From Acipenser ruthenus (lineage: Eukaryota), in the NCBI RefSeq assembly GCF_902713425.1, contig NC_081212.1, positions 9,908,261 to 9,972,260 of the forward strand: a DNA stretch of 64,000 nt, read 5' to 3'. Every line of letters starts with the position of its first letter. Within the stretch, counting starts at the first letter, position 1. The notes under the pieces were generated by a model. That model did no database searches. It worked only from the letters and a program-made list of their open reading frames with translations, and was not told the origin of the DNA. Of the stretch, positions 4,583-4,915 are shown piece after piece. The translations under genes and the position numbers were made by a program.

Positions 4583-4744
4583 TTGGCTGTGCTCTCTCTC
4601 TCTCTCTCTCTCTCTCTCTCTCTCTCTCTCTCTCTCTCTCTCTCTCTCTCTCTCTCTCTCTCTCTCTCTCTCTCTCTCTCTCTCTCTCTCTCTCTCTCTC
4701 TCTCTCTCTCTCTCTCTCTCTCTCTCTCTCTCTCTCTCTCTCTC
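4583..4744. repeat. (TC)n microsatellite of about 160 bp, serving as the polypyrimidine tract upstream of the rcc1l exon at 4916
   Basis: direct reading. Confidence 0.95.
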
Positions 4745-4915
4745 TCCAGATCTCCTGGGCTGCCTGTGGTTATGGGTTCACCTTGCTCGCTCTCTCTCTC
4801 TTTCCAGATCTCCTGGGCTGCCTGTGGTTATGGGTTCACTTTACTGTCTCTCTCTTTCCAGATCTCCTGGGCTGCCTGTGGTTATGGGTTCACTTTACTG
4901 TCTCTCTCTTTCCAG
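4745..4915 (+). repeat. tandem array of three pseudo-3' splice-site units (58, 54 and 54 bp); each carries TTCCAG plus the first 34-36 nt of the rcc1l exon (ATCTCCTGGGCTGCCTGTGGTTATGGGTTCAC)
   Basis: exon-start motif begins at 4750, 4808, 4862 and 4916 (the real exon). Confidence 0.9.

What the first reader, a model, noticed from the sequence alone, without database searches (positions are those of the whole stretch)
4583..4915. Rcc1l exon preceded by a 160-bp (TC)n and three tandem copies of its own acceptor and exon start; two copies are in-frame 54-nt units
The motif TTCCAG|ATCTCCTGGGCTGCCTGTGGTTATGGGTTCAC… (acceptor plus first 11 codons ISWAACGYGFT of the exon at 4916) occurs four times head-to-tail. 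The exon-start motif begins at 4750, 4808, 4862 and at the real exon 4916, giving spacings of 58, 54 and 54 bp. Every copy keeps an intact polypyrimidine tract and AG. Using the acceptor at 4860-4861 or 4806-4807 would insert 18 or 36 amino acids (ISWAACGYGFTLLSLSFQ, once or twice) in frame and duplicate part of an RCC1 blade. The 4748-4749 acceptor would frameshift. This is a smaller version of the castor array, in the neighbouring gene, again seeded next to a CT-rich tract.
Basis: seen in the sequence. Interest (0 to 1): 0.8.

Follow-up and report, generated by a model that had tools for sequence, protein, structure and literature searches.

The report
Repeated decoy splice acceptors before rcc1l exon 2
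In sturgeons and paddlefish, the junction between intron 1 and exon 2 of the rcc1l gene has been copied head-to-tail several times, giving the splicing machinery a row of identical decoy splice sites; available cDNA shows only the last, genuine one in use, so this is an old, unstable repeat of a type already described in amphioxus, not a new protein-coding feature.

Summary
The window is Acipenser ruthenus (sterlet) rcc1l. A pure (CT)77 tract (4592-4746) is followed by three decoy units of 58, 54 and 54 bp (4750, 4808, 4862). Each unit is a polypyrimidine tract, CAG and the first 38-41 nt of exon 2. The real exon 2 is 4916-5045. A fifth copy at 1479, also behind a (CT)n tract, is split from the rest by an antisense LINE.

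The array is not sterlet-specific. Huso huso has 6 copies, A. oxyrinchus 10 and Polyodon spathula 6. Gar and bowfin have one. It therefore probably dates to the sturgeon-paddlefish ancestor (about 172 Ma) and has been turning over since.

Unit lengths (48-88 bp) are not held to multiples of three, and most decoys would give premature stops. The RefSeq model and five sturgeon cDNA contigs join exon 1 to a single copy, which means the last acceptor. No database protein carries the predicted 18-aa insert.

[quoted passage not shown] It is also the acceptor-side counterpart of the human F7 intron-7 VNTR. I rate it a new member of a known kind, of moderate interest as a natural test of 3' splice-site choice. 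The neighbouring castor gene holds about 183 units of the same type.

The parts
610..1434 (-). ORF1-like open reading frame of a second LINE (LINE-B). Its 5' end abuts the (CT)n tract in front of copy 0.
   Evidence: 274-aa ORF. It has a weak GDSL-lipase/esterase match (PF13472, 26.7 bits, below the 32.9 cutoff). An esterase ORF1 is typical of CR1-like LINEs (my own knowledge). It is only about 70% identical to the LINE ORF1 region in Huso, so it is a separate insertion.
1438..1478 (+). (CT)~19 tract plus CCAG: the acceptor of the outlying decoy copy 0.
   Evidence: Sequence read. The 23-mer context is ctctctctctctctctccag|ATC.
1479..1519 (+). Decoy copy 0: the first 32 nt of exon 2 are exact, followed by CTTTCTCTC, then cut by the LINE-A insertion.
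   Evidence: Exact 32-mer match. Huso has the orthologous, degenerate copy at L006 4933 next to the same LINE 3' junction.
1520..4591 (-). Antisense, 5'-truncated LINE (LINE-A) inserted into a CT spacer of the array. It is not part of the repeat but splits it.
   Evidence: Minus-strand ORFs 1903-3360 (RVT_1, E=3.5e-23) and 3509-4576. It is 95.6% identical to Huso L006 4972-8151 with the same 3' junction aattcaaattggctttattggca. In Huso it extends about 1.5 kb further, to its ORF1 end.
4592..4746 (+). Pure (CT)77.5 microsatellite: an expanded spacer and polypyrimidine tract in front of decoy 1.
   Evidence: TRF, 100% matches. It forms a 169-nt AG-free zone with no yUnAy branch-point-like motif.
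4750..4807 (+). Decoy unit 1 (58 bp), entered through CAG 4747-4749. Exon-derived 38 nt plus CGCTCTCTCTCTCTTTCCAG. Use of this acceptor would add 166 nt, shift the frame and give a stop at codon 74.
   Evidence: It differs at one base (G for T) from the last Huso decoy unit.
4808..4861 (+). Decoy unit 2 (54 bp, 'TTTACTG' type). Use would add 36 aa in frame.
   Evidence: It is identical to A. oxyrinchus units at L007 3956, 4174 and 4282.
4862..4915 (+). Decoy unit 3 (54 bp), identical to unit 2. It also supplies the polypyrimidine tract, the AG (4914-4915) and the only branch-point-like motifs (A4892 in TTCAC, A4897 in TTTAC) for the authentic acceptor.
   Evidence: The AG-free zone before the real acceptor is 52 nt and lies wholly inside this unit.
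4916..5045 (+). Authentic rcc1l exon 2 (130 nt, phase 0 at its start), with donor gtgagt at 5046-5051.
   Evidence: tblastn. RefSeq protein ...EMHQK|ISWAACGYGFTLLSSRTCD. cDNA L001 positions 440-569 map to 4916-5045 and positions 570 onward map to 5274.

Best explanation
This is a 'mirage'-type minisatellite. The intron 1/exon 2 boundary of rcc1l (the last 10-20 nt of a CT-rich polypyrimidine tract, CAG, and the first 38-41 nt of the exon) was tandemly duplicated by slippage or unequal exchange at CT/TC microhomology, probably in the common ancestor of sturgeons and paddlefish. It has since gained and lost units, had its CT spacers expand (to 155 bp in sterlet) and taken up LINE insertions. The copies are intronic decoys. 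The mRNA is made from the 3'-most acceptor, the only one followed by the rest of the exon. The mechanism of that choice is inferred. The acceptor 23-mers are identical, so discrimination must come from context. Each decoy has a CU-rich stretch about 38-41 nt downstream (8-11 CUCU/UCUU-type motifs, which would be PTB-type silencer sites). The authentic site is instead followed by ordinary purine-containing exon and a strong donor 130 nt away, which favours exon definition. The branch point for the authentic acceptor must lie inside the preceding decoy unit, in former coding sequence. The first decoy behind (CT)77 has no branch-point-like motif in its 169-nt AG-free zone and is probably inert. 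The array as such most likely has no function. Occasional use of a decoy would give out-of-frame transcripts that meet premature stops (expected NMD targets) or, in sterlet, rare +18/+36-aa products.
For: Structure. Gene identity and exon boundary. Shared array with different copy numbers: sterlet 5, Huso 6 plus one truncated, A. oxyrinchus 10, Polyodon 6 plus one truncated. The same variant units occur in the same order in a second Polyodon assembly. Gar and bowfin have a single copy with the same boundary. Unit lengths of 48-88 bp are not restricted to 3n; 14 of the 21 full-length decoy acceptors give premature stops, and every Huso decoy does. Turnover is visible in three ways: a 152-bp three-unit block that includes the real exon start was duplicated in Polyodon; Huso lacks the two TTTACTG units that sterlet and A. 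oxyrinchus share; and interior units share C33T while edge units keep the exon state. The decoy cores differ from the real exon at only 12 of 672 nt, while flanking introns differ by 5-17% between these species. Splicing: cDNA contigs L001-L005 and the RefSeq model use one copy, and no insert-bearing protein exists in the database. Context asymmetry, AG-free zones and branch-point motifs. Precedent: amphioxus mirages do not disturb splicing, are length-unstable and evolve in concert (PMC3087553; PMC3902484).
Against: There are no sterlet RNA-seq junction data. The cDNA contigs come from a different, unidentified sturgeon species (3' UTR about 95% identical), and the RefSeq protein is a model. 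Absence of insert isoforms from a protein database is weak negative evidence. Persistence in every acipenseriform lineage sampled over roughly 170 Myr, and the near-invariance of the 32-nt core while unit tails vary, could also reflect selection rather than turnover alone. In three of four species the unit next to the exon is an in-frame 54-mer, which might hint at selection against frameshifting leakage, though sterlet and A. oxyrinchus share that unit type by descent. The proposed PTB/exon-definition basis for choosing the last acceptor is untested.
Confidence: 0.78

Rival explanations
1. The decoy acceptors are genuine alternative 3' splice sites. Sterlet then makes RCC1L isoforms with 18 or 36 extra residues (ISWAACGYGFTLLSLSFQ, once or twice) that duplicate the first strands of an RCC1 blade.
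For: Acceptors 4808 and 4862 are in frame and open. The 23-mer around 4862 is identical to that of the real site, and both have branch-point-like motifs 18-27 nt upstream. In sterlet, A. oxyrinchus and Polyodon the unit nearest the exon is 54 nt.
Against: The RefSeq model and all five cDNA contigs have a single copy. No protein with a duplicated AACGYGF motif exists among 5.8 billion sequences apart from an ab initio Huso model that merely starts inside a decoy. Unit lengths across species are not held to 3n, and Huso has no in-frame decoy at all, so any such isoform is not conserved.
Confidence: 0.08
2. The array is kept by selection as a regulatory element. It could be a CU-rich binding platform for PTB/hnRNP proteins, or a set of decoy sites that diverts some transcripts into unproductive, NMD-targeted splicing and so tunes rcc1l output or splicing kinetics.
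For: The array is present in all four acipenseriform species over roughly 124-203 Myr. The decoy cores are nearly invariant, at 1.8% difference. Most decoys would yield premature stops. There are dense CUCU/UCUU motifs. A second, much larger array of the same design sits in the neighbouring castor gene.
Against: Copy number, unit length, spacer length and even LINE content differ freely between species, which fits drift better than constraint. Acipenseriform genomes evolve slowly (PMC10199039), which prolongs neutral persistence. Gar, bowfin and other vertebrates manage with a single acceptor. Core invariance is expected if new units keep being copied from, or converted by, the selected real exon. 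There is no evidence that any decoy is used.
Confidence: 0.1
3. The repeat is not derived from the gene. It belongs to a dispersed repeat or LINE end that happens to resemble the exon, or it is an assembly artefact.
For: Two copies abut LINE ends in sterlet and Huso. Short-read assemblies break or gap at the array (N in L014).
Against: A. oxyrinchus and Polyodon have uninterrupted arrays with no LINE. The repeated 32-mer is the conserved coding start of exon 2, recognisable in gar, bowfin and beyond. The LINEs sit in the CT spacers, as expected for insertions into the array. The array is reproduced in five independent assemblies of four species with consistent variant units. It is short enough (about 220 bp) to lie within single long reads.
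Confidence: 0.03

Closest known systems
[quoted passage not shown] 2002, cited in PMC3087553; Ebner et al. 2010, PMC3087553; PMC3902484)
   Same: The repeat is head-to-tail with minisatellite-sized units, each made of the 3' end of an intron, its splice acceptor and the 5' part of the exon. The authentic boundary is the terminal unit. Normal mRNA is made despite intact AG signals in the copies. Copy number is unstable. Interior units are homogenised and edge units are excluded.
   Different: This case is in a vertebrate (ray-finned fish) and is shared by two families that split about 172 Ma, whereas mirages were described as haplotype-level polymorphisms in lancelets. Units are joined by expandable (CT)n spacers that double as the polypyrimidine tract. 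The array has absorbed LINE insertions. Somatic or allelic instability has not been tested here.
Human F7 intron 7 37-bp VNTR, whose first unit spans the exon 7 donor (Borensztajn et al. 2006, PMC1557585)
   Same: A vertebrate minisatellite spans an exon-intron boundary and gives a row of sequence-identical pseudo splice sites that stay silent while the exon-adjacent site is used.
   Different: F7 repeats the donor (5' splice site), and the site used is the most upstream one, explained there by 5'-to-3' scanning. Here the acceptor is repeated and the site used is the most downstream one, which a simple 5'-to-3' 'first site wins' rule does not predict.
Internal gene duplications spanning splice sites, and intron gain or extension by tandem duplication (Rogers 1989; Zhuo et al. 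2007; Gao and Lynch 2009, all as cited in PMC3087553; potato RdRp case, PMC4974935)
   Same: A tandem duplication includes a splice signal, and the spliceosome uses one copy so the transcript is unchanged and duplicated exon sequence becomes intronic.
   Different: No new intron is created here. An existing intron is lengthened at its 3' end by former exon sequence, repeatedly, giving a multi-copy array instead of a single duplication.
NAGNAG and other closely spaced tandem acceptors
   Same: There are several AGs in a row that could in principle each be used.
   Different: Those sites are 3-18 nt apart and share one branch point and polypyrimidine tract. Here each site is a complete module 48-88 nt from the next.

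Membership tests
Mirage minisatellite (tandem duplication of an intron-exon boundary) | Head-to-tail repeat with a minisatellite-sized unit (reported range 10-160 bp) | tested here: met
   TRF gives period 54, 4.0 copies, 94% matches. Units are 48-88 bp in four species.
Mirage minisatellite (tandem duplication of an intron-exon boundary) | Each unit contains intron end, splice signal and adjoining exon part | tested here: met
   Every unit has a CT-rich tract, CAG and the first 38-41 nt of exon 2.
Mirage minisatellite (tandem duplication of an intron-exon boundary) | The authentic boundary is the terminal unit and regular splicing is not disturbed | tested here: met
   The last copy continues into exon 2 in all species. 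cDNA L001-L005 and the RefSeq model have one copy. Caveat: the cDNA is from a related sturgeon species, not sterlet.
Mirage minisatellite (tandem duplication of an intron-exon boundary) | Length instability (copy number differs between haplotypes or individuals) | tested here: inconclusive
   Variation between species is clear, at 5, 6, 10 and 6 copies. Within a species, the two Polyodon assemblies differ (5 versus 3 decoys), but the shorter one has an N inside the array. No second sterlet assembly reached exon 2.
Mirage minisatellite (tandem duplication of an intron-exon boundary) | Concerted evolution of interior units, with edge units excluded | tested here: inconclusive
   Interior Acipenseridae units share C33T while the first and last decoys keep the exon state. 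Polyodon shows a three-unit higher-order duplication. The units are too short for a robust tree.
NAGNAG / adjacent tandem acceptors | Alternative AGs no more than about 18 nt apart sharing one branch point and polypyrimidine tract | tested here: not met
   Spacing is 54-58 nt in sterlet and 48-88 nt overall, and each unit has its own tract.
Intron gain by tandem duplication (Rogers model) | The duplication creates a new intron bounded by duplicated proto-splice sites inside former exon | tested here: not met
   The intron position and phase are the same as in gar and bowfin. Only the existing intron's 3' end is extended.
Tandem exon duplication with mutually exclusive or alternative exons | Whole exon duplicated with both splice sites, and copies alternatively included in mRNA | tested here: not met
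   Units carry only the first 38-41 nt of a 130-nt exon and no consensus donor. No transcript or protein carries a copy.
RCC1L / WBSCR16 orthologue (host gene) | Full-length similarity and RCC1-repeat domains | tested here: met
   99% identity to A. ruthenus XP_058854343.1, 72-82% to RCC1L of other vertebrates, Pfam RCC1 families.

The most novel reading that the evidence does not exclude
Acipenseriform genomes carry a class of long-lived boundary-duplication ('mirage') arrays, with two in adjacent genes in this one window (4-9 decoys in rcc1l, about 183 in castor). These arrays expose the spliceosome to many sequence-identical, complete 3' splice-site modules, yet it reliably picks the last one. 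If so, they show that acceptor choice among identical sites is anchored from the exon side (exon definition), the mirror image of the donor-side scanning shown for human F7. They also show that former coding sequence routinely becomes the working branch point and polypyrimidine tract. The arrays' survival for about 170 Myr might then reflect a mutational or selective regime peculiar to this slowly evolving, palaeopolyploid lineage.
Probability: 0.3. Interest if true: 0.65.

Novelty: new member of a known kind. Interest (0 to 1): 0.45.

Why it matters
1. It is a natural experiment on 3' splice-site choice. Up to nine complete, sequence-identical acceptor modules sit upstream of the real one, and the real one is the last, so simple 'first AG' or 5'-to-3' priority rules do not explain the outcome. 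A minigene series built from these arrays could test exon-definition and silencer models directly, as was done for donors with human F7.

2. It shows intron growth at the expense of exon sequence. The branch point and polypyrimidine tract now serving exon 2 are former coding sequence.

3. It extends 'mirages', so far described mainly in lancelets, to a vertebrate lineage and shows that such arrays can persist for over 100 Myr.

4. There are practical consequences. The arrays mislead gene prediction (the Huso model starts inside a decoy) and break short-read assemblies. The variable copy number could serve as a marker for sturgeon species, hybrids or populations.

Tried and rejected
- The sterlet loci for P0001 and its paralogue P0002 could not be fetched, so I could not ask whether the other whole-genome-duplication copy has the array.
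- The older sterlet assembly contig starts at window position 5470, downstream of exon 2.
- The A. sinensis locus is not colinear upstream.
- The Polyodon 24-kb contig lacks exon 2.
- The 466-aa A. oxyrinchus protein looked as if it might carry the insert. Its extra length comes from an exon-7 read-through, and exon 2 is 4 nt shorter.
- The Huso model starting MGSPCSLSLSFQ is an ab initio start inside a decoy, not an isoform.
- I considered origin of the first duplication by TCCAG...TCCAG microhomology (intron end versus exon +43 to +47, a motif absent from gar and bowfin). The TTTACTG units retain the exon-specific CTGTC, so their right breakpoint lies at or beyond +41. The commoner units break after +38 (GCT|CTCTC), so at least two breakpoints exist and the exact founding event cannot be recovered.
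- I looked for a hairpin that might hide the decoys. CCAG-AUCUC-CUGG forms only a 4-bp stem and is present at the real site too, so it cannot discriminate between them.
- No MaxEnt-type scorer was available. I used the identity of the 23-mers instead.
- Two literature searches were rejected for term syntax, and two papers (Canestro 2002; Zhuo 2007) are not held. They are cited only through PMC3087553.

Full report
OBSERVATION. Tandem Repeats Finder reports a perfectly pure (CT)77.5 at 4592-4746 and a 54-bp-period array at 4735-4956 (4.0 copies, 94% matches). The exact 32-mer ATCTCCTGGGCTGCCTGTGGTTATGGGTTCAC starts at 4750, 4808, 4862 and 4916, and none is expected by chance. Each copy follows a pyrimidine run and CAG. 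The units are 58, 54 and 54 bp. Reading from 4808 or 4862 stays in frame and adds ISWAACGYGFTLLSLSFQ twice or once. Reading from 4750 adds 166 nt and meets a stop at codon 74.

WHAT THE LOCUS IS. A protein assembled from the window's exons is 99% identical to Acipenser ruthenus (sterlet) RCC1-like G exchanging factor-like protein, XP_058854343.1. That protein reads ...LTPYRLEMHQK|ISWAACGYGFTLLSSRTCD. So 4916 is the annotated start of exon 2 in phase 0, and exon 1 lies upstream of the window. Exon 2 is 4916-5045, with donor gtgagt at 5046, and exon 3 starts at 5274. Between copy 0 and the (CT)77 tract lies an antisense, 5'-truncated LINE at about 1520-4591. It has minus-strand ORFs, one matching reverse transcriptase at E=3.5e-23. 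Upstream of copy 0, the ORF1 end of another antisense LINE abuts the CT tract (610-1434; weak esterase-type match). The array is therefore at least five copies long and has been split by retrotransposon insertions into its CT spacers.

COMPARATIVE EVIDENCE. Genomic loci for three relatives were recovered and scanned. Huso huso has six full copies plus one truncated copy. A. oxyrinchus has ten in one uninterrupted run. The paddlefish Polyodon spathula has six plus a truncated one. In every species the last copy continues into the real exon (...CACCTTGCTGTCCTCCAGGAC...). Alligator gar and bowfin have a single copy with the same boundary and phase (...cttccag|ATCTC...). The array therefore arose after acipenseriforms split from the other ray-finned fishes sampled. 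Because sturgeons and paddlefish share it, it most simply dates to their common ancestor. Redmond et al. date that split to about 172 Ma (95% interval 124-203 Ma) and note the slow evolution of these genomes (PMC10199039). Independent origins in the two families cannot be formally excluded, but the same breakpoint (exon +38, GCT|CTCTC) in both argues against that.

The array is dynamic. Unit lengths are 58, 54, 54 in sterlet; 88, 60, 78, 58 in Huso; 58, 56, 54, 56, 56, 52, 54, 54, 54 in A. oxyrinchus; and 50, 54, 48, 50, 54 in Polyodon. The differences lie mainly in CT-spacer length. Polyodon shows a 152-bp higher-order duplication of three units that included the real exon start. The variant units 'TCAG' and 'GATT' recur in the same order. 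A second, independent Polyodon assembly has the same variants in the same order but only one set, with an N inside the array. That is either a copy-number allele or a collapsed assembly. The 54-bp 'TTTACTG' unit is identical in sterlet and A. oxyrinchus, yet Huso, the closer relative of sterlet, lacks it. In Huso a 58-bp unit that differs at one base (T for G) from sterlet decoy 1 sits directly before the exon, which fits loss of 108 bp by unequal exchange. Huso shares the LINE-A insertion (95.6% identity, same 3' junction) but keeps about 1.5 kb more of its 5' part, so sterlet has since suffered a deletion there. Interior units of the Acipenseridae share a C-to-T change at exon position 33, while the edge units keep the exon state. 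This is the pattern expected of tandem-repeat turnover. The 32-nt cores of the 21 decoys differ from the real exon at only 12 of 672 positions, while flanking intron differs by about 5% (Huso), 5-12% (A. oxyrinchus) and 12-17% (Polyodon) from sterlet. I read this as continuing birth, death and conversion of units with the selected real exon as one partner. Selection on the decoys is the alternative and is not excluded.

WHICH ACCEPTOR IS USED. Five intron-free cDNA contigs assembled from public RNA-seq runs (SRR31090427-32) encode a 445-aa RCC1L. They join exon 1 (...ATGCACCACAAG) directly to one copy, which continues ...CACCTTGCTGTCCTCCAGGACGCG. Mapped to the window, the cDNA gives exon 2 = 4916-5045 exactly. 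Its 3' UTR is only about 95% identical to sterlet and Huso, so it comes from another sturgeon species. All acipenseriforms examined carry the array, so it remains relevant. The sterlet RefSeq model agrees. A search of 5.8 billion proteins with a query carrying exon-1 tail, two inserts and exon 2 found nothing with a duplicated AACGYGF motif. The only 'protein' touching a decoy is the ab initio Huso model, which starts MGSPCSLSLSFQ inside the preceding unit. Of the 21 full-length decoy acceptors across the four species, 14 would give premature stops. In Huso every one does. The decoys are therefore not coding, and the in-frame 54-mers of sterlet look incidental.

HOW IT MOST LIKELY WORKS. Shown: the 23-nt acceptor contexts of 4862 and 4916 are identical, and 4808 and 4750 differ only within the CT run, so any matrix-type splice-site score cannot separate them. 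Shown: no AG occurs inside a unit, so the AG-free zone before the real acceptor is 52 nt and lies wholly within decoy 3. Its only yUnAy motifs are A4892 (TTCAC, from the codons for Phe-Thr) and A4897 (TTTAC), 23 and 18 nt from the exon. Inferred: the working branch point and polypyrimidine tract of exon 2 are former exon sequence plus CT spacer. Shown: the first decoy behind (CT)77 has a 169-nt AG-free zone with no branch-point-like motif, and copy 0 likewise has none. Inferred: these two are poor substrates. Shown: from +33 to +75 the decoys are 72-77% pyrimidine with 8-11 CUCU/UCUU-type motifs, whereas the real exon is 49% pyrimidine with none. Inferred, from general knowledge of splicing (CU-rich elements bind PTB-type repressors; exon sequence and a nearby strong donor promote acceptor use by exon definition; Reed and Maniatis 1986, recalled from memory): only the last acceptor is followed by proper exon context, so it wins. 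Any leakage to the decoys would mostly give transcripts that meet premature stops and would be expected NMD targets. The origin is inferred to be slippage or unequal exchange at CT/TC microhomology between the CT-rich tract and the exon. At least two right-hand breakpoints are visible: after exon +38 in most units, and at or beyond +41 in TTTACTG units, which keep the exon-specific CTGTC. Long pure polypurine-polypyrimidine tracts can form H-DNA and are fragile (general knowledge). That may explain the recurrent rearrangements and LINE insertions here, but it is untested.

COMPARISON WITH WHAT IS KNOWN. [quoted passage not shown] Those have units of 10-160 bp and intact AG/GT signals in many copies. 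They leave regular splicing undisturbed, vary in copy number between haplotypes and show concerted evolution with the edges excluded (PMC3087553; PMC3902484). In vertebrates the nearest case I found is the human F7 intron-7 37-bp VNTR, whose first unit spans the exon 7 donor. Its identical pseudo-donors are functional but silent, and the most upstream site wins by 5'-to-3' scanning (PMC1557585). The rcc1l array is the acceptor-side counterpart, with the opposite polarity, since the most downstream site is used. It also relates to the general finding that internal duplications spanning splice sites are tolerated because one copy is used (Gao and Lynch 2009 and Zhuo et al. 2007, as cited in PMC3087553). 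It is not a NAGNAG-type tandem acceptor, not an intron gain and not a duplicated alternative exon (see the membership table). In the held library only two papers use 'mirage' in this sense and both concern lancelets. I therefore found no earlier report in fishes, but this is a limited library and not proof of novelty.

THE CASTOR ARRAY. On the minus strand, 30346-38996 consists of about 183 units reading ...ctctctgtctctctctcag|ATGAGTGTGGGATCGTG, with spacings mostly 49, 41 and 37 bp. The last unit runs into a real castor exon (...GIVAQISESLAAADIPAYYISTFKFDHAL|gtgagt). Huso has the same array with only 14 units. Two such arrays in adjacent genes suggest that the phenomenon may be common in this lineage.

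VERDICT. The structural interpretation is right, and the isoform implication is unsupported. This is an ancient, unstable boundary-duplication minisatellite: a new, vertebrate member of a known kind. Its interest is moderate. The value lies in its age, in showing exon sequence turned into working intron signals, and in its use as a natural substrate for testing how the spliceosome chooses among identical acceptors.

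Noticed in passing
window 30346-38996 (minus strand); Huso L006 38951-39607: The castor gene carries about 183 tandem units of its own acceptor plus exon start (...ctctctcag|ATGAGTGTGGGATCGTG; spacings mostly 49, 41 and 37 bp), ending in a real castor exon (about 30364-30268, then gtgagt). Huso has only 14 units. It is the same class as the rcc1l array but about 40 times larger.
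   Followed up: partly
window 10210-11711; L006 about 15490-19735; L007 about 9358-11268: A 37/76-bp minisatellite (about 40 units) sits in the middle of rcc1l intron 6. It is shared with Huso, where it is about 4 kb, and with A. oxyrinchus. It is not adjacent to an exon.
   Followed up: partly
window 610-1434 and 1520-4591 (minus strand); L006 4972-9707: Two antisense LINE insertions sit in CT spacers of the array. LINE-A is shared with Huso, where it is longer, so sterlet has deleted its 5' part. LINE-B has an esterase-like ORF1 whose 5' end abuts (CT)n. CT tracts of the array seem to act as landing sites.
   Followed up: partly
L007 4336-4461 (A. oxyrinchus exon 2): Exon 2 is 126 nt instead of 130 nt, and the deposited protein reads GFQQPENAV instead of GFQRSRRER. 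This is either an assembly indel or a real frameshift in that species.
   Followed up: no
protein P0002 (XP_058856930.1, sterlet paralogue on a 27-Mb chromosome): The second sterlet rcc1l copy is modelled as 362 aa starting at MHQK. It contains stretches that look like intron read-through (VLKCLSTAPP..., GETDLISLGEN...), suggesting a decaying duplicate or a poor model. Its locus could not be fetched, so whether it has the array is unknown.
   Followed up: partly
window 4964-4969: A sterlet-specific change ACGCGT to ACATGT (two CpG transitions) turns the conserved SRTRD into SRTCD in exon 2. Huso, A. oxyrinchus, Polyodon and the cDNA keep Arg.
   Followed up: no
L008 9479-10181 and L013: In the Polyodon chromosome-level assembly, rcc1l stops after exon 7 and PARP4 follows within 700 bp. 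Exons 8-11 are on a separate 24-kb contig. This is a likely misassembly or rearrangement.
   Followed up: no
L014 position 321: A short-read Polyodon assembly has an N exactly inside the array and three decoys instead of five. These arrays break or collapse assemblies and can be mistaken for copy-number alleles, or the reverse.
   Followed up: partly
window 54601-55310 and 56100-59332: There is a dense cluster of further tandem arrays (periods 22, 45, 65, 54, 36-72, 39 and 30 bp). Several are G+C-rich and possibly coding repeats of an unidentified gene.
   Followed up: no
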